A DNA stretch of 7,056 bases, taken from the IMG/VR virus record IMGVR_UViG_2693429562_000006. One strand, 5' to 3'. The notes beneath the pieces are model-generated. The model had not been told where the DNA came from and searched no databases. It saw only the letters and a program-made list of their open reading frames with translations. Position 1 is the first letter of the stretch. Every line of letters starts with the position of its first letter. The translations under genes were made by a program, and so were the position numbers. Shown here piece by piece: positions 1,844 through 7,056 of this stretch. The stretch is from a virus. Its lineage: Duplodnaviria; Heunggongvirae; Uroviricota; Caudoviricetes.

Positions 1844-1938
1844 TTAGCCAGGTAACACAGTGTTATGACTGCCCGCTGGTTCAGGCGGGCTTTTTGTGGG
1901 GTGAATATGGCAGTAAAGATTTCAGGTGTACTGAAAGA
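1687..1938 (+). repeat. Copy A of a duplicated segment (lom 3' end + intergenic terminator + first 32 nt of stf)
   Basis: Direct repeat of 2474-2643 with near-identity by eye. Copy B lacks the 83 bp at 1721-1803 and differs by a few substitutions and one extra T. Confidence 0.85.
1871..1895 (+). terminator. Putative rho-independent terminator downstream of lom
   Basis: gcccgc (1871-1876) / gcgggc (1885-1890) stem followed by ttttt (1891-1895). Confidence 0.5.
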
Positions 1939-2233
1939 TGGGGCGGGTAAACCTGTCGTAAATTGTGCGATTGAACTGCGGGCCAGAAGAACCAGTCCGA
2001 CCGTTGTGGCACACGTTGTTGCCACTTGCGTGACGGACAATAACGGTGCTTATGTGATTGAGGCTGAGCCGGGGTATTACGAGGTTGCGCTTCACTGTAA
2101 CGGCTGGCAGCCAACCCGTGTCGGGGATATTGATGTGGCACCGACTGATGCACCGGGGACACTGAACGCGTTTCTGAATGCACCAAAGGATGGTGATTTA
2201 CGTCCGGAGGTGATGAAGTGTCAGCGCCAGTGA
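1907..2233 (+). pseudogene. Truncated side tail fibre gene: a diverged N-terminal domain (~102 aa of Stf-like sequence) followed by 6 foreign codons and a stop
   Basis: Begins [12 protein letters not shown], identical to the N-terminus of the intact stf at 2612, then runs colinear but diverged (...PGTLNAFLNAPKDGDLRPEV versus ...[20 protein letters not shown]). Similarity stops after codon ~102 (nt ~2212). The tail MKCQRQ-stop reads into the adjacent IS-like sequence. The listed ATG at 1865 lies inside the lom terminator hairpin, so 1907 is the more likely start. Confidence 0.55.
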
Positions 2234-2462
2234 TATAAGACGGTAATTCGCCATTTGGATTGTCCGCTCCACCCAACATGTTGTTTCCTTAAGGTTCTCA
2301 CACCAGAAAGGACATCAACATGCTGAGCAGAGAGGACTTTTACATGATAAAGCAAATGCGCCAGCAGGGCGCGTACATCGTCGATATTGCGACTCAGATT
2401 GGTTGCTCTGAACGGACGGTCAGACGCTACCTCAAATACCCTGAACCGCCAGCCAGAAAGAC
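2219..2462 (+). mobile_element. Left end of an IS21-family insertion sequence (IS100-like), truncated by the N gap; left boundary approximate (2211-2221)
   Basis: Stf homology ends at ~2212. The sequence from tgtcagcgcc onward carries, about 100 nt in, an ORF whose N-terminus (MLSREDFYMIKQMRQQGAYIVDIATQIGCSERTVRRYLKYPEPPARK) I recognise as the helix-turn-helix start of an IS21-family IstA transposase. Recognition is from memory, not a search. Confidence 0.5.
2320..2462 (+). CDS. istA: IstA transposase, N-terminal 47 codons only (3'-truncated at the assembly gap)
   Basis: ATG at 2320 preceded by aaagga. The HTH-like motif CSERTVRRYL is present. The ORF runs directly into the N run. Confidence 0.5.
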
Positions 2463-2473
2463 NNNNNNNNNNN
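2463..2473. other. Assembly or scaffold gap (11 N)
   Basis: A run of n characters in the sequence. The rest of the IS21-family element is not represented. Confidence 0.95.
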
Positions 2474-2547
2474 TGATGGCGGTCGCCACAGCAACACGTC
2501 TCTGGCGCACTGACGGTTTCATCGTGGGTGTCGGTTATAAATTCTGA
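2474..2547 (+). pseudogene. lom: Second-copy lom 3' remnant (5'-truncated, with an 83-bp internal deletion relative to 1687-1843)
   Basis: 2474-2507 matches 1687-1720 and 2508-2547 matches 1804-1843, ending in the same ...WRTDGFIVGVGYKF-stop. The missing block is bounded by ctggcg in copy A (1715-1720 and 1798-1803). The listed 75-aa ORF 2320-2547 is a chimera reading across the gap. Confidence 0.7.
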
Positions 2548-2574
2548 TTAGCCAGGTAACACAGTGTTATGACA

Positions 2575-2600
2575 GCCCGCCGGTTCAGGCGGGCTTTTTT
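2575..2600 (+). terminator. Putative rho-independent terminator (second copy of the lom terminator)
   Basis: gcccgcc / ggcgggc stem followed by tttttt (2595-2600). The t to c change relative to copy A adds one base pair to the stem. Confidence 0.5.
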
Positions 2601-2611
2601 GTGGGGTGAAT

Positions 2612-5600
2612 ATGGCAGTAAAGATTTCAGGTGTACTGAAAGACGGCACAGGAAAACCGGTACAGAACTGCACAATCCAGCTGAAAGCAAAACGTAACAG
2701 CACCACGGTGGTGGTGAACACGCTGGCCTCAGAAAATCCGGATGAAGCCGGGCGTTACAGCATGGACGTTGAGTACGGTCAGTACAGCGTTATTCTGTTG
2801 GTGGAAGGATTCCCGCCGTCACATGCCGGGACCATCACCGTGTATGAAGATTCCCGACCCGGTACGCTGAATGATTTTCTCGGTGCCATGACGGAGGATG
2901 ATGCCCGTCCGGAGGCACTGCGCCGTTTTGAGCTGATGGTGGAAGAGGTGGCGCGTAACGCGTCCGCGGTGGCACAGAACACGGCAGCCGCGAAGAAATC
3001 AGCCAGCGATGCCAGCACATCAGCCCGTGAGGCGGCAACCCATGCGACTGATGCTGCAGATTCAGCACGTGCAGCCAGCACGTCAGCCGGACAGGCCGCT
3101 TCGTCGGCTCAGTCAGCGTCTTCCAGCGCAGGAACGGCATCAACAAAGGCCACTGAAGCCTCAAAAAGTGCTGCCGCTGCAGAGTCCTCAAAAAGCGCGG
3201 CGGCTACCAGTGCCGGTGCGGCGAAAACGTTAGAAACGAATGCGGCAGCGTCACAACAATCAGCAGCCACTTCTGCATCCACCGCGACCACGAAAGCGTC
3301 AGAAGCTGCCACCTCAGCCCGGGATGCGTCGGCTTCAAAAGAGGCGGCAAAATCATCAGAAACGAACGCATCATCAAGCGCCAGTAGCGCAGCTTCCTCG
3401 GCGACGGCGGCTGCAAATTCTGCGAAGGCGGCCAAAACGTCCGAGACGAACGCCAGGTCTTCTGAAACGGCAGCGGGACAGAGTGCCTCAGCTGCGGCAG
3501 GCTCAAAAACAGCGGCTGCGTCGTCTGCCAGCGCCGCGTCAACAAGTGCCGGGCAGGCCTCAGCCAGTGCCACCGCCGCCGGAAAATCGGCAGAAAGCGC
3601 CGCATCATCCGCTTCAACAGCCACAACGAAGGCTGGCGAAGCCACTGAGCAGGCCACGGCAGCAGCGAGGTCAGCTTCCGCAGCGAAGACATCCGAAACG
3701 AACGCGAAAGCGTCGGAAACCCGTGCAGAATCCTCAAAAACGGCTGCCGCATCGTCCGCCAGTTCGGCGGCGTCATCGGCATCATCGGCGTCTGCTTCAA
3801 AAGATGAGGCGACCAGACAGGCGTCAGCAGCGAAGGGCAGCGCCACGACGGCATCCACGAAGGCGACAGAGGCTGCTGGTAGTGCGACGGCAGCAGCTCA
3901 GAGCAAAAGTACGGCGGAATCTGCAGCAACGCGCGCTGAGACAGCGGCAAAACGGGCAGAGGATATTGCATCCGCCGTGGCGCTTGAGGATGCGAGCACG
4001 ACGAAAAAGGGGATAGTACAGCTCAGTAGTGCGACTAACAGCACTTCCGAGTCACTGGCGGCAACACCAAAAGCCGTTAAGGCCGCGTATGACCTGGCTA
4101 ACGGGAAATACACCGCACAGGATGCAACGACAGCACAGAAAGGGATAATCCAGCTAAGCAGCGCGACCAACAGCACGTCTGAAACGCTGGCGGCAACGCC
4201 AAAGGCAGTAAAAGCAGCCAATGACAATGCTGAGAAACGTCTGCAGAAAGATCAGAACGGTGCGGATATCCCTGGCAAAGACACCTTTACGAAAAATATT
4301 GGTGCCTGCCGTGCCTTCGGTGGGTCAGTAAGCACAACAACAGGAAACTGGACGACTGCACAGTTTATCGAGTGGCTGGATTCTCAGGGAGCATTTAACC
4401 ATCCATACTGGATGTGCAAGGGTTCCTGGTCTTATGGCAATAATAAAATCATTACTGATACTGGCTGCGGTAATATTCATCTCGCCGGAGCTGTCATTGA
4501 AGTAATGGGGATAAAGTCAGCGATGACGATCCGCATTACCACTCCGACCACATCCAGCGGTGGCGGAACAACCAACGCCCAGTTTACCTATATTAATCAC
4601 GGAACAGATTATTCACCTGGCTGGCGAAGGGACTATAACTCCAGAAATAAGCCAACGGCATCAGAGATCGGGGCGCTACCGTCAGGTGGAACAGCAGTAT
4701 CATCAGTTAATCTGGCTTCAAAAGGTCGGGTAGCCGCGCTGACAGACAATACGCAGGGGGCAGCAGGTCTTGAGTTATACGAGGTGTATAACAACGGATA
4801 TCCAACAGCGTATGGAAATATCATTCACCTGAAAGGGATGACAGCCGTTGGCGAAGGTGAGTTACTCATCGGCTGGAGTGGTACAAGCGGTGCTCATGCT
4901 CCGGCATTTATTCGTTCACGACGGGATACGACCGACGCAAACTGGTCGCCGTGGGCGCAGCTTTACACCTCGGCTCATCCTCCTGCAGAGTTTTATCCAG
5001 TCGGTGCACCAATCCCGTGGCCATCAGATACCGTTCCGTCTGGTTATGCCCTGATGCAGGGGCAGACTTTTGACAAATCTGCTTACCCGAAACTTGCAGC
5101 CGCTTATCCGTCAGGCGTGATCCCTGATATGCGTGGCTGGACGATTAAGGGCAAGCCCGCCAGTGGTCGTGCCGTATTGTCTCAGGAACAGGATGGCATT
5201 AAATCGCACACCCACAGCGCCAGCGCATCCAGTACGGATTTGGGGACGAAAACCACATCGTCGTTTGATTACGGCACTAAATCCACGAATAACACCGGGG
5301 CGCATACGCACAGTCTGAGCGGCTCTACAAGTTCAGCTGGGGCCCACCAACATAGTCAGACTGGGCCCAGAACGAATAGCGGGAGTCAACCTACTGGAAT
5401 GTTTCCGGCAGGGAGTACTCAAGTTAGCGGGACTAATCAGGTTGGTATCAGTGGCTCATTAACCAGTGGCACCTCCCAATGGGTAGGTAAATCATCTTCA
5501 GAAGGAAACCATACACACTCACTGTCCGGCACAGCAGCATCTGCGGGTGCACACGCGCATACTGTCGGTATTGGTGCTCATACGCACTCTGTTGCGATTG

Positions 5601-5695
5601 GTTCACATGGACACACCATCACCGTTAACGCTGCTGGTAACGCGGAAAACACCGTCAAAAACATCGCATTTAACTATATTGTGAGGCTCGCATAA
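2612..5695 (+). CDS. stf: Side tail fibre protein, ~1027 aa, mosaic. ATG at 2612 is preferred; an upstream in-frame GTG at 2606 is the ORF-track start.
   Basis: N-terminus [20 protein letters not shown]... and C-terminus ...[31 protein letters not shown] match my recollection of lambda Stf. It contains a long Ala/Ser/Thr-rich low-complexity region (~2950-3990), two fibre repeats, the conserved GAPIPWPSD...SAYPKLA block, and HxH motif clusters in the tip. ggggtg lies upstream of the ATG. Confidence 0.9.
4004..4231 (+). repeat. Two intragenic tail-fibre repeats within stf (about 4004-4099 and 4136-4231)
   Basis: [32 protein letters not shown] and [32 protein letters not shown] are near-identical 32-aa units 44 codons apart. 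Confidence 0.6.
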
Positions 5696-6276
5696 TGGCA
5701 TTCAGAATGAGTGAACAAGCACGGACCATAAAAATTTATAACCTGCTGGCCGGAACTAATGAATTTATTGGTGAAGGTGACGCATATATTCCGCCTCATA
5801 CAGGTCTGCCTGCAAACAGTACCGATATTGCACCGCCAGATATTCCGGCTGGTTTCGTGGCTGTTTTCAACAGTGATGAGTCATCGTGGCATCTCGTTGA
5901 AGATCATCGGGGTAAAACGGTTTATGACGTGGCTTCCGGCGACGCGTTATTTATTTCTGAACTCGGCTCATTACCGGAAAATGTCACCTGGTTATCCCCG
6001 GAAGGGGAGTTTCAGAAGTGGAACGGCACAGCCTGGGTGAAGGATACGGAAGCAGAAAAACTGTTCCGGATCCGGGAGGCGGAAGAAACAAAAAACAGCC
6101 TGATGCAGGTAGCCAGTGAGCATATAGCGCCGCTTCAGGATGCTGTGGATCTGGAGATCGCAACGGAGAAAGAAACCTTGTTGCTGGAAGCTTGGAAAAA
6201 GTATCGGGTGTTGCTGAACCGTGTTGATACATCAACTGCACCGGATATTGAATGGCCAGTAGCACCTATAGGGTAA
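5695..6276 (+). CDS. tfa: Tail fibre assembly protein (chaperone for Stf)
   Basis: 193-aa [37 protein letters not shown]... resembling lambda Tfa. Its ATG overlaps the stf stop in TAATG (5693-5697), suggesting translational coupling. Confidence 0.9.
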
Positions 6277-6362
6277 ATTCGTAATGATTACCTAAATACG
6301 TTATTCTTTTGTTAAAAAAGTGATTTTGCTATAGGTAGGGAGTATGTTCTTGGATTAAGAAT

Positions 6363-6392
6363 AAAAAATCGCCATGAAAGAGCTTCATGGCG
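6363..6392 (-). terminator. Possible minus-strand rho-independent terminator
   Basis: Perfect 9-bp inverted repeat cgccatgaa (6370-6378) / ttcatggcg (6384-6392) with a 5-nt loop. The A6 run at 6363-6368 becomes a T run following the hairpin on the minus strand. Confidence 0.35.
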
Positions 6393-6541
6393 AGTACATA
6401 AACGTACAAAATGTGATGAAAGTAGAGTGGCGTAAGCCACTATATTAAGATATGACAATAGCGAAGAAAAGTAAATAACATTTTATGGACGTTTAATTGT
6501 TAATTATAAAAACTAGAGTGCCCGATATTGTTTATCTTGCT

Positions 6542-6643
6542 TTAAAATAATGTACTCAAACCAAATTTTTGAGCTAAAAGCTCAAATAATATAAATGCAA
6601 TAATAATGTTTAATAAGACAATTAGCTTGCTTTGTATTTTCAT
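6542..6643 (-). CDS. Speculative small hydrophobic ORF (33 aa, MKIQSKLIVLLNIIIAFILFELLAQKFGLSTLF)
   Basis: Hand translation of the minus strand: ATG at 6643 to TAA at 6542-6544. It has a ~18-residue hydrophobic core. There is no clear SD, and AT-rich DNA biases towards I/L/F/K codons, so this may be chance. Confidence 0.15.
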   Translation of the reverse strand: MKIQSKLIVLLNIIIAFILFELLAQKFGLSTLF

Positions 6644-6677
6644 TTCGGAATACTGTTAAGTAACTTTGATGACCCTA

Positions 6678-6706
6678 ACAATAGATCGGAATTTTCTTAG
6701 AGTCAA
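6678..6706 (-). promoter_or_regulatory. Candidate sigma70-like promoter on the minus strand, upstream of the small ORF
   Basis: On the minus strand: TTGACT (complement of + 6701-6706), a 17-bp spacer, then TATTGT (complement of + 6678-6683). This is about 35 nt upstream of the ATG at 6643. Confidence 0.2.
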
Positions 6707-7025
6707 TGGTCACTGTTTTTGCTTGCAAAGCAAATGTTTTGGTGGTTATAAGTCGTCTTAATATAGTCACGCATGCAACTTGTTCCATGCGGAGATTAAA
6801 GATTGGAATATAACGCGAAGATGGAATTAAATTACATTTGCAATAATTAATTTATTATTACTCAATAATTACCGATATTATTATTGTAAATTAATCATTA
6901 GAATGCAAAAAGAAATGTAACGGCAAAATAAGAGGACGATAGCTGAGAAAAAAGCGTGCTTTCCCAATCTGGGGCAAATCACGTCTGAATGACACCTGAA
7001 AACAGGTGGTAGCCTCAAGAAGGCT

Positions 7026-7056
7026 GGTGATGCTGCCAACTTACTGATTTAGTGTA
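7026..7056 (+). mobile_element. IS1 left terminal inverted repeat (element continues beyond the window)
   Basis: ggtgatgctgccaacttactgatttagtgta matches the IS1 left end as I recall it (GGTGATGCTGCCAACTTACTGAT...). Only 31 bp are present. Confidence 0.7.

What the first reader, a model, noticed from the sequence alone, without database searches (positions are those of the whole stretch)
6542..6706. Candidate small hydrophobic peptide gene with sigma70-like promoter on the minus strand
Minus-strand ORF 6643 to 6542 encodes the 33-aa peptide MKIQSKLIVLLNIIIAFILFELLAQKFGLSTLF, with a single predicted membrane-spanning stretch. Upstream on the same strand are TTGACT, a 17-bp spacer and TATTGT. 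A strong minus-strand terminator-like hairpin lies ~150 nt further on at 6363-6392. Size and hydrophobicity recall type I toxins or small membrane proteins. The case is weak: no clear SD, and AT-rich DNA yields such ORFs by chance.
Basis: inference. Interest (0 to 1): 0.4.

Follow-up and report, generated by a model that had tools for sequence, protein, structure and literature searches.

The report
Unannotated prophage YncL-like small membrane protein
The 33-codon reading frame looks like a real, never-annotated gene, carried by tailed prophages in about 15% of complete E. coli genomes, for a tiny membrane protein distantly related to the host stress protein YncL, followed on the same transcript by an even better conserved RNA tail.

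Summary
None is remarkable alone: 78% of shuffles of this AT-rich stretch give such an ORF. Comparison with other copies supports a gene. The unit follows the tail fibre assembly gene tfa in lambdoid prophages of 828 of 5426 complete E. coli genomes, and is never annotated there. The frame is intact in 31 of 32 distinct copies, including an allele only 77-80% identical. Changes are mostly synonymous (dN/dS about 0.09; 16 synonymous against 9 non-synonymous, P about 2e-6). Neighbouring chance ORFs decay. The peptide's only family match is YncL, a 31-aa E. coli stress membrane protein (39% identity, no gaps; 22-27 bits against a cut-off of 35). Shuffles and other small hydrophobic peptides do not match that model. 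I read it as a prophage moron encoding a divergent YncL-like single-pass inner-membrane peptide. No antitoxin RNA was found, so a type I toxin is not supported. The last 80 nt of the transcript (hairpin, linker, terminator) are 91-96% conserved between alleles, more than the ORF, and may be a 3'-derived sRNA. Expression is untested and there is no Shine-Dalgarno sequence.

The parts
6678..6706 (-). Promoter-like site TTGACT, 17 bp, TATTGT, with a C directly upstream of the -10 hexamer. The predicted transcription start is near 6670.
   Evidence: Consensus scan. As a match it is at chance level. However, the segment is 90% identical between the two deep alleles while the adjacent 5'UTR is 74% and the upstream region 71%. 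Function as a promoter is inferred, not shown.
6644..6677 (-). Short AU-rich 5' leader with no Shine-Dalgarno sequence. An in-frame stop lies 15 nt before the ATG (TAA here, TAG in the L002 type).
   Evidence: Read directly. The leader is mostly unpaired in the centroid fold of the predicted transcript. Chromosomal yncL orthologues carry a conserved AAAGGTGG in this position; this gene does not.
6542..6643 (-). 33-codon gene for a YncL-like single-pass small membrane protein, MKIQSKLIVLLNIIIAFILFELLAQKFGLSTLF.
   Evidence: ORF. Intact in 31 of 32 distinct copies. dN/dS about 0.09, specific to this frame. Variable columns by codon position 8/2/13. Synonymous to non-synonymous 16:9, P=2e-6. NCBIfam YncL E=1.3e-5. 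BLASTP against K-12 YncL: 39% identity over 28 aa, no gaps. Shuffle controls. Hydrophobic segment at residues 7-25.
6481..6541 (-). Poorly conserved proximal 3'UTR, acting as a spacer.
   Evidence: 58% identity with 8 gap columns between the two alleles. A 5-bp indel lies immediately after the stop codon and leaves the frame untouched.
6394..6445 (-). Conserved 3' element: hairpin GUGGCUUACGCCAC followed by a single-stranded linker of about 33 nt, CUCUACUUUCAUCACAUUUUGUACGUUUAUGUAC.
   Evidence: 96% identical between alleles, more than the ORF at 80%. Present in 827 genomes, all copies at least 90% identical, and always found with the ORF. The 3' region folds with z=-5.2. Alifold gives hairpin plus terminator, but there are no compensatory changes to test the structure. 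A weak full-length MicC-like match (22.8 bits, gathering score 90) is not significant.
6359..6393 (-). Intrinsic terminator for the minus strand: 11-bp stem, 3-nt loop, U-run. It ends the unit about 85 nt before the convergent tfa stop codon at 6276.
   Evidence: Scan. 91% identical between alleles. The plus-strand side has no T-run, so it acts in one direction only.

Best explanation
Window 6710-6360 (minus strand) is a self-contained accessory transcription unit, a 'moron', of a lambdoid prophage. It sits just past the tail fibre assembly gene tfa and points towards it.

The unit is AT-rich and has its own promoter-like site and intrinsic terminator. It would give a transcript of about 310 nt. 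That transcript encodes a 33-aa single-pass inner-membrane peptide that is a divergent homologue of the enterobacterial stress protein YncL.

By analogy with YncL, the peptide would insert into the inner membrane of the lysogen. YncL production causes sublethal membrane depolarisation. The prophage peptide would lower or modulate membrane energisation, or act on a membrane partner. The conserved polar residues inside the helix (N12 and position 21) are likely contact points.

During lytic growth, late transcription reading through stf-tfa would run antisense to the unit.

The 3' terminal 80 nt are under nucleotide-level constraint of their own. They probably act as an RNA element: a stabilising end or a 3'-derived small RNA.

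What is shown: the features are present, the frame is under purifying selection, the similarity to YncL is specific, the unit is linked to tfa in prophages at several integration sites, and the 3' element is conserved. What is inferred: promoter use, translation without a Shine-Dalgarno sequence, membrane insertion, depolarising activity, expression in lysogens, and any function of the 3' element.
For: Context:
- The window carries J, lom, stf and tfa, then 750 bp at 31% GC against 48-63% for the tail genes.
- The same roughly 550-bp module follows tfa in prophages at the lambda attachment site (bioA-ybhB), next to the sit operon and at ydfJ. It is also in the isolated phages mEp332, PhiR70_1 and ev099.
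- It occurs in 828 of 5426 complete E. coli genomes, 941 copies, all chromosomal, never annotated.

Coding evidence:
- The ORF is intact in 31 of 32 distinct copies from 78 loci.
- Window type against L002 type: 11 synonymous and 7 non-synonymous differences on 19.7 and 79.3 sites, dN/dS 0.09. The other frames scored, four of the five, show no such skew.
- Within the window type there are 5 synonymous and 2 non-synonymous differences. Combined binomial P=2e-6.
- The ORF survives 20 random substitutions in only 7.8% of trials.
- Indels are frequent on both sides of the ORF and absent inside it.
- Four other ORFs in the module are broken in 6 to 24 of 33 sequences.

Homology:
- The only NCBIfam hit is NF000537 YncL, covering positions 1-28 of 30, E 1e-5 to 1e-6.
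- BLASTP 39% identity, no gaps, E=2e-7.
- Ungapped score 60-68 against 20 +/- 4 for composition-matched shuffles, maximum 47 of 3000. All real peptides outrank 20000 shuffles against an HMM of four YncL orthologues.
- Eight other small hydrophobic peptides do not hit the YncL model.
- The hydrophobic segment lies at residues 7-25 in both proteins, with basic residues on both sides.

YncL biology:
- It is a 31-aa membrane protein induced by heat shock and minimal medium. Its production depolarises the membrane and condenses the nucleoid (PMC12542507).
- The Salmonella yncL transcript was first listed as the sRNA STnc1110, and its expression needs sigma-S (PMC5437024).
Against: - There is no Shine-Dalgarno sequence, whereas all chromosomal yncL orthologues found have AAAGGTGG.
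- The promoter match is no better than chance.
- There are no transcriptome, ribosome-profiling or proteomic data. No paper in the searchable library contains the sequence.
- Gene callers almost never call it: a cluster of 2 among 15 billion proteins. PGAP never does.
- The selection signal rests on one deep split between two alleles plus a few shallow variants, 25 substitutions in all.
- The score against the YncL model is below the curated cut-off (22-27 against 35 bits; true YncL scores 68-72). No intermediate sequences were found in phage or metagenome collections.
- For 30-aa hydrophobic helices, convergence cannot be excluded.
- A frameshifted variant exists in two short low-coverage contigs.
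Confidence: 0.68

Rival explanations
1. It is a type I toxin-antitoxin module. The peptide is a membrane-depolarising toxin whose translation is normally blocked by a small antisense RNA, and it stabilises the prophage or triggers dormancy or abortive infection.
For: The peptide has the size and hydrophobicity of type I toxins. It lacks a Shine-Dalgarno sequence, so translation could be intrinsically low or regulated. Its homologue YncL depolarises the membrane when produced (PMC12542507). A plus-strand promoter-like site at 6452-6481 could in principle drive an RNA antisense to the 3'UTR and ORF.
Against: - No type I toxin model matches; YncL was the only family hit in the whole NCBIfam library. 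The TisB, DinQ and Fst models were shown to recognise their own toxins.
- No direct repeat of useful length that could encode a trans-pairing RNA. The best are 11-12 nt with mismatches.
- Synonymous sites in the ORF (pS 0.56), the 5'UTR (74%) and the proximal 3'UTR (58%) evolve freely. An overlapping cis-antisense regulator would not allow that.
- The plus-strand promoter-like site is a chance-level match.
- The 5'UTR is short (about 27 nt), unlike the long structured leaders of hok, tisB, zorO or shoB (my own knowledge).
- YncL itself is not classed as a toxin.
Confidence: 0.12
2. The functional product is RNA only. The unit is a small regulatory RNA gene, either the whole 310 nt or a 3' fragment of 80-120 nt, and the ORF is not translated. 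Its conservation would be a relic of capture from a yncL-like gene.
For: The most conserved part is non-coding: hairpin plus linker 96% and terminator 91%, against 80% for the ORF. The 3' end has the hairpin, single-stranded stretch, terminator and U-tail typical of Hfq-binding sRNAs. Its best, though non-significant, Rfam match is full-length MicC. There is no Shine-Dalgarno sequence. The Salmonella yncL transcript was itself first catalogued as an sRNA (PMC5437024).
Against: Both alleles diverged while already in the same prophage position, and yet changes in the ORF are strongly biased to synonymous sites, in this frame only. Indels avoid the ORF. That requires selection on the protein after capture. 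An RNA function of the 3' end is compatible with the best explanation and does not replace it. No target pairing was found with the unit's own start region or with K-12 yncL.
Confidence: 0.12
3. It is a chance ORF in AT-rich intergenic DNA. The module is conserved only because it is young and spreads with the prophage.
For: ORFs of this size are expected by chance here. Most copies are at least 95% identical. Annotation pipelines ignore it.
Against: The 77-80% identical allele keeps the start, the stop and the frame. Four other chance ORFs in the same DNA decay. The substitution pattern is that of a coding sequence. The product specifically resembles a known small protein.
Confidence: 0.06

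Closest known systems
YncL (E. coli b4598; NCBIfam NF000537; Salmonella STM14_1932 / STnc1110)
   Same: About 31-33 aa with one hydrophobic segment at residues 7-25. Shared pattern: M-x-[IV]-x-S-[KR]-x-[IV]-[VI]-L-[LI]-N-[IF]-[IF]-x-A-x-x-L-F-x-L-[LI]-x-x-[KR]-F-G. 39% identity without gaps. Both are encoded on a short stand-alone transcript. This is the only family that matches.
   Different: It scores 22-27 bits against a cut-off of 35, where orthologues score 68-72. It sits in a prophage beside tfa, not between patD and ortT. It has no Shine-Dalgarno sequence, whereas yncL has a conserved AAAGGTGG. It has a different promoter and a long 3'UTR with a conserved terminal element. It has a charged residue, E or K, at position 21 inside the helix, and a longer C-terminal tail (LSTLF).
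Phage morons of lambdoid prophages (for example lom and bor of lambda, gp15 of HK97, cor of phi80/N15). The comparison rests on my own knowledge.
   Same: An extra gene placed among or just after the late tail genes. It has its own promoter and terminator and a deviant base composition (31% against about 50% GC). It is present in only some related phages, with different neighbours. It encodes a membrane protein.
   Different: It is far smaller than the described examples and lies on the strand opposite to the late operon. No phenotype is known. It carries a conserved non-coding tail.
Type I toxins (TisB, ShoB, ZorO, DinQ, Ldr, Hok, Fst)
   Same: A small hydrophobic single-helix peptide. Its homologue YncL depolarises the membrane when produced (PMC12542507).
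   Different: There is no sequence match to any of these families. No antitoxin RNA was detected. The leader is short and unstructured.
3'UTR-derived Hfq-dependent sRNAs (for example CpxQ, MicL and KilS from the Rac prophage kilR 3'UTR). KilS is cited from PMC8175672; the others are from my own knowledge.
   Same: The last 80 nt of an mRNA form a hairpin, a conserved single-stranded stretch and an intrinsic terminator with a U-tail. This part is more conserved than the upstream UTR.
   Different: There is no evidence of processing, Hfq binding or targets. No Rfam family matches at a significant level.

Membership tests
YncL (NCBIfam NF000537, equivalog) | Whole-protein score at or above the curated cut-off of 35 bits | tested here: not met
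   The four prophage variants score 22.5-27.1 bits (E 7.5e-5 to 2.8e-6). K-12 YncL and a second orthologue score 68.6 and 72.5 bits.
YncL (NCBIfam NF000537, equivalog) | Full-length collinear similarity that exceeds what composition gives | tested here: met
   The alignment covers positions 1-28 of 30 without gaps, at 39% identity. Ungapped BLOSUM62 score 60-68 against 20 +/- 4 for shuffles (0 of 3000 reach it). The real peptides outrank 20000 shuffles against a YncL HMM. Eight other small hydrophobic peptides give no YncL hit.
YncL (NCBIfam NF000537, equivalog) | Chromosomal position patD - yncL - ortT, with the conserved Shine-Dalgarno sequence AAAGGTGG | tested here: not met
   The K-12 locus is shown. 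The prophage gene lies after tfa and has no Shine-Dalgarno sequence.
YncL (NCBIfam NF000537, equivalog) | Inner-membrane localisation, stress induction, and depolarisation on production | not testable with these tools
   Known for YncL (PMC12542507; PMC5437024). Only a hydropathy calculation was possible here.
Type I toxin-antitoxin system | Small hydrophobic toxin peptide | tested here: met
   33 aa, GRAVY 1.51, one hydrophobic segment.
Type I toxin-antitoxin system | A cognate antisense RNA, either overlapping or trans-pairing from a nearby repeat | tested here: not met
   No meaningful direct repeats. No nucleotide-level constraint over the ORF, 5'UTR or proximal 3'UTR. The only plus-strand promoter-like site is a chance-level match. 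Without RNA data, absence cannot be proven.
Type I toxin-antitoxin system | Sequence membership of a known toxin family | tested here: not met
   YncL was the only family hit in NCBIfam, so no type I toxin model matched. The TisB, DinQ and Fst models recognise their own toxins in the control run. Nothing in Pfam, no significant match in PHROGs (E=0.59), and nothing in PADLOC.
Type I toxin-antitoxin system | Growth arrest or killing on expression, relieved by the RNA | not testable with these tools
   This needs an inducible expression experiment.
Phage moron | Accessory gene within or next to late genes of a prophage, present in some relatives and absent in others | tested here: met
   It lies directly after stf-tfa. 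It is found in 15% of genomes at several integration sites with different right-hand neighbours.
Phage moron | Own promoter and terminator, and a deviant base composition | tested here: inconclusive
   The terminator is clear and the composition is 31% against about 50% GC. The promoter is only a conserved consensus match.
Phage moron | Expressed from the repressed prophage | not testable with these tools
   No expression data are available.
3'UTR-derived Hfq-binding sRNA | Intrinsic terminator with a U-tail, preceded by a conserved single-stranded seed | tested here: met
3'UTR-derived Hfq-binding sRNA | A stable short RNA species, Hfq association, and defined targets | not testable with these tools
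   Pairing with the unit's own start region or with yncL is no better than shuffles.

The most novel reading that the evidence does not exclude
One prophage transcript of about 310 nt would have two products. The first is a YncL-like peptide that lowers the membrane potential of the lysogen, for instance to exclude superinfecting phages or to push the host into a low-energy tolerant state. The second is an RNA of about 80 nt released from its 3' end, which is more conserved than the coding part and would regulate host genes through Hfq. The prophage would then deploy a divergent counterpart of a host stress-response peptide and couple it to an RNA regulator.
Probability: 0.2. Interest if true: 0.65.

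Novelty: new member of a known kind. Interest (0 to 1): 0.45.

Why it matters
Small membrane proteins are systematically missed by annotation. This one is carried by about one complete E. coli genome in seven, up to four copies each, and is named in none of the rows these searches listed. Its only relative, YncL, is one of the few small proteins with a reported cellular effect: sublethal depolarisation and nucleoid condensation.

A phage-borne, sequence-diverged copy gives a natural variant for structure-function work, through the invariant N12 and F27-G28 and the variable charged position 21. It also raises a testable question: do prophages use such peptides to alter host energisation, phage exclusion or antibiotic tolerance?

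The tightly linked, highly conserved 3' element is a concrete candidate for a prophage-encoded regulatory RNA. On the practical side, the NCBIfam cut-off excludes this subfamily, so a dedicated model would annotate it in hundreds of genomes.

Tried and rejected
1. Protein database searches largely failed for technical reasons.
- The word-indexed search refuses queries under 40 aa.
- tblastn against phage records found nothing, probably because the low-complexity filter masks the peptide.
- The alignment-driven scan of species-representative genomes matched 436 stretches, but none passed its tblastn check. The first scan of that collection, with a DNA pattern, found nothing.
- The exhaustive HMMER search returned only the peptide itself and a frameshifted variant.

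2. More distant phage-borne relatives were sought with two degenerate back-translated patterns in the viral collection. Only the same E. coli module came back, plus one ordinary yncL. The metagenome scan gave the three known prophage variants and YncL orthologues, with no intermediates.

3. The hairpin inside the ORF (6586-6568), flagged as terminator-like, is broken without compensation in the L002 allele. It is not functional.

4. The 37-aa ORF at 6675-6788, annotated as hypothetical in phage PhiR70_1, loses its start codon in other copies and is intact in only 16 of 33. It is not a gene.

5. The 48-aa ORF spanning the terminator is intact in 9 of 33.

6. Pairing of the conserved 3' linker with the unit's own translation start, as in hok-like fold-back, or with the K-12 yncL start region is no better than shuffles.

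7. The MicC (22.8 bits) and Esr41 (15.6 bits) Rfam matches are far below the gathering scores.

8. The 12-nt perfect inverted repeat TCTTAATATAGT flanking the gene (6439-6450 and 6756-6767) is not kept in the L002 allele and is probably chance.

9. A sigma-54 reading of TGGAACAAGTTGCAT at about 6790-6776 was rejected by eye, because the GG to GC spacing is wrong.

10. Searching the paper library for the sequences found nothing.

Full report
WHAT THE WINDOW IS

The window is the tail end of a lambdoid prophage of Escherichia coli.
- The plus strand carries the C-terminal part of the host-specificity protein J (70-1176), lom (1244-1843), a long side tail fibre gene stf (2606-5695) and the tail fibre assembly gene tfa (5695-6276).
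- After tfa the G+C content falls from 48-63% to 31%.
- The window ends in 31 bases that I recognise as an IS1 terminus. The otherwise identical locus L001 diverges from the window exactly at 7026.
- The finding lies in the AT-rich stretch, on the strand opposite to the tail genes.

CHECK OF THE OBSERVATION

- The ORF at 6643-6542 encodes the stated peptide.
- TTGACT, 17 bp, TATTGT lies at 6706-6678. A strong hairpin with a T-run lies at 6393-6369.
- There is no Shine-Dalgarno sequence.

Taken alone these features prove little.
- Shuffled versions of the 749-bp stretch contain an ATG-ORF of at least 33 codons 78% of the time.
- The number of promoter-like matches equals the shuffle expectation: 4 against 3.8.
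- Only the terminator exceeds chance.

THE MODULE IS WIDESPREAD AND NEVER ANNOTATED

- The transcription unit (6710-6360) is found in 828 of 5426 complete E. coli genomes. There are 941 copies, all chromosomal, and no feature is annotated under the match in any listed row.
- It follows tfa in prophages integrated at the lambda site next to ybhB-bioA (L001), beside the sit operon (L002, L003) and at ydfJ (L004). The right-hand neighbours differ.
- It is also present in three isolated phages, mEp332, PhiR70_1 and ev099, in 49 IMG/VR contigs and in 24 metagenome contigs.
- In the L002 and L004 lineages the right flank of the module is a remnant of a tfa 3' end. PGAP annotates it in L002, and the alignment reads ...[10 protein letters not shown].... 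The module has therefore moved by recombination around tfa.

IS THE ORF A GENE?

There are two deep alleles, the window type and the L002 type. They are 77-80% identical over the module. L003 and L037 are intermediates.

Frame conservation:
- Across 78 loci there are 32 distinct sequences of the whole unit. The ORF keeps its ATG, frame and stop in 31 of them.
- The exception is a one-base deletion in an A-run, seen in two short low-coverage assemblies.
- A 5-bp indel sits immediately after the stop codon. The proximal 3'UTR has 8 gap columns. The ORF has none.

Substitution pattern:
- Between the two alleles there are 11 synonymous and 7 non-synonymous differences on 19.7 and 79.3 sites. That gives pS 0.56, pN 0.09 and dN/dS about 0.09.
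- The script scored this frame and four of the other five frames over the same nucleotides before it stopped. None of those four shows the skew.
- Within the window type, 5 of 7 variable sites are synonymous.
- Taken together, 16 of 25 changes are synonymous where 20% is expected (P=2e-6).
- Variable columns fall 8/2/13 on codon positions 1/2/3.

Controls:
- Under 20 random substitutions the ORF would survive in 7.8% of trials.
- The four other ORFs of 31-48 codons in the same module are intact in only 9, 16, 24 and 27 of 33 sequences, with many protein variants.
- In one search the candidate shows 31 of 33. That is an artefact of how the alignment places the gap at the L002-type stop codon. 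One search shows the L002-type ORF is intact, with 33 aa and the stop in place.

The amino-acid changes between alleles are V9I, I15F, F17L, E21K and S30Y.

I conclude that selection has acted on the protein while it was in this prophage position.

WHAT THE PROTEIN IS

- Pfam and PADLOC give nothing. PHROGs gives only a non-significant match for one variant (phrog_25644, E=0.59).
- NCBIfam gives a single match, NF000537 'stress response membrane protein YncL', covering positions 1-28 of the 30-position model. The scores are E=1.3e-5 and 25 bits, and 22.5-27.1 bits across the four variants. This is below the curated cut-off of 35. Genuine YncL proteins score 68-72 bits.
- BLASTP against K-12 YncL (MNVSSRTVVLINFFAAVGLFTLISMRFGWFI) gives 11 of 28 identities and 18 of 28 positives with no gap.

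The similarity is not just hydrophobic composition.
- Ungapped scores are 60-68, against 20 +/- 4 for shuffles of the peptide (maximum 47 of 3000).
- Against an HMM of four YncL orthologues recovered from metagenomes, the real peptides outrank all 20000 shuffles.
The window peptide's only NCBIfam hit is YncL, so it matches none of the library's type I toxin models.

Shared positions are M1, S5, K/R6, I/V8, V/I9, L10, L/I11, N12, I/F13-14, A16, L19, F20, L22, L/I23, K/R26, F27 and G28. The hydrophobic segment is at residues 7-25 in both proteins, with basic residues on each side.

It is therefore a divergent YncL-like protein, not a YncL orthologue. It fails the family cut-off and lies in a different genomic place. 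It also lacks the conserved AAAGGTGG ribosome-binding site that all chromosomal yncL genes in my sample carry.

WHAT IS KNOWN OF YncL

- YncL is a 31-aa membrane protein that is up-regulated in minimal medium and by heat shock. Producing it, like YohP, causes sublethal membrane depolarisation, nucleoid condensation and hypersensitivity to pore-forming peptides (PMC12542507).
- In Salmonella its transcript had been catalogued as the sRNA STnc1110, and expression of a translational fusion requires sigma-S (PMC5437024).
- It is an in vivo substrate of the intramembrane protease RseP (PMC10470546).
- Its mRNA appears as a RIL-seq partner of KilS, an sRNA from the Rac prophage (PMC8175672).

HOW THE LOCUS PROBABLY WORKS

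I regard it as a moron: an AT-rich insert after the last late gene, with its own signals, present in only some related phages.

- Promoter. The promoter-like segment is 90% conserved between alleles while its flanks are 71-74%. It has a C directly before the -10 hexamer in both alleles. From general knowledge that fits sigma-S use. This is inference only.
- Start region. The predicted leader is about 27 nt, AU-rich and largely unpaired. The second codon is AAA or AAG. Translation would have to start without a Shine-Dalgarno sequence.
- Peptide. It would insert as a single helix. By analogy with YncL it would lower membrane energisation or bind a membrane partner. The invariant Asn in the middle of the helix and the polar or charged position 21 (E, K, T or S) are obvious candidates for helix-helix contacts.
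- Lytic growth. The unit converges on tfa, so antiterminated late transcription would run antisense through it during lytic growth.

None of these steps has been shown experimentally.

THE 3' ELEMENT

Identity between the two alleles, by segment:

| Segment | Identity |
|---|---|
| Hairpin plus linker (6440-6394) | 96% |
| Terminator (6393-6360) | 91% |
| ORF | 80% |
| Proximal 3'UTR | 58% |

- An 88-nt query covering the element finds 827 genomes, all copies at least 90% identical. That is essentially the same count as for the whole unit, so the element never occurs without the gene.
- It folds into hairpin, single strand of about 33 nt, terminator and U-tail (z=-5.2).
- There are no compensatory changes with which to test the structure.
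- Its best Rfam match is a full-length but non-significant alignment to MicC.
- This is the architecture of 3'-derived Hfq-binding sRNAs. I found no pairing with the unit's own start region or with host yncL beyond shuffle level.
- I list it as part of the unit with unknown function.

RIVALS

- Type I toxin-antitoxin module: disfavoured. No partner RNA can be located. The free evolution of synonymous sites and of both UTR segments next to the ORF argues against an overlapping antisense regulator. It is not excluded, since YncL is depolarising.
- RNA-only gene: contradicted by the coding signature.
- Chance ORF: contradicted by the coding signature, the decay of the control ORFs and the specific YncL similarity.

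VERDICT

The locus is a new, divergent, phage-borne member of the YncL kind of small membrane proteins, unannotated in hundreds of genomes, with a linked conserved RNA tail. It is moderately interesting. What is missing is any direct evidence of expression.

Noticed in passing
window 6358-6445 (minus strand): The last roughly 80 nt of the predicted transcript (hairpin, 33-nt linker, terminator) are 91-96% identical between alleles whose ORFs are only 80% identical. The element is always linked to the ORF (827 genomes). It is a possible 3'-derived sRNA. The weak full-length MicC-like Rfam match is not significant.
   Followed up: partly
window 7026-7056: The window ends in what I recognise as an IS1 terminal repeat (GGTGATGCTGCCAACTTACTGATTTAGTGTA). 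The intact locus L001 diverges exactly at 7026 and continues for about 750 bp to an AraC-family regulator gene.
   Followed up: partly
window 1865-2605: This stretch holds a truncated stf start (1865-2233), a fragment resembling the N-terminus of an IS21-family transposase (from 2320), a run of N at 2464-2474, then a second copy of the lom 3' end and stf start. It looks like an assembly join or a rearranged or duplicated lom-stf junction.
   Followed up: no
window 6038-6236 (plus strand, inside tfa): Strong Rfam match to IS009 (218 bits, gathering score 117), a catalogued E. coli candidate RNA that here lies wholly within the tfa coding sequence.
   Followed up: no
L002 3546-3645; L004 about 3580-3640: In the L002 and L004 lineages the right flank of the module is a remnant of a tfa 3' end (…[10 protein letters not shown]…). 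The module is therefore sandwiched between a full tfa and a tfa fragment, which suggests acquisition or exchange by recombination within tfa.
   Followed up: partly
window 6439-6450 and 6756-6767: A perfect 12-nt inverted repeat, TCTTAATATAGT, brackets the gene, within a 25-nt imperfect repeat. It is not kept in the L002 allele, so it is probably chance.
   Followed up: partly
window 6452-6481 (plus strand): A promoter-like site, ATGACA, 18 bp, TAACAT, points antisense into the 3'UTR and ORF. It is a chance-level match.
   Followed up: partly
window about 3000-4050 (within stf): The stf product has a very long Ala/Ser/Thr-rich low-complexity middle section, which gives long spurious ORFs in several other frames and a local G+C of 60-63%.
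   Followed up: no
L055 22100-22195 and metagenome loci L060-L107: Chromosomal yncL orthologues share a conserved upstream block (CCGTACTATAC…AAAGGTGG). This is a useful contrast showing that the prophage gene has entirely different expression signals.
   Followed up: partly
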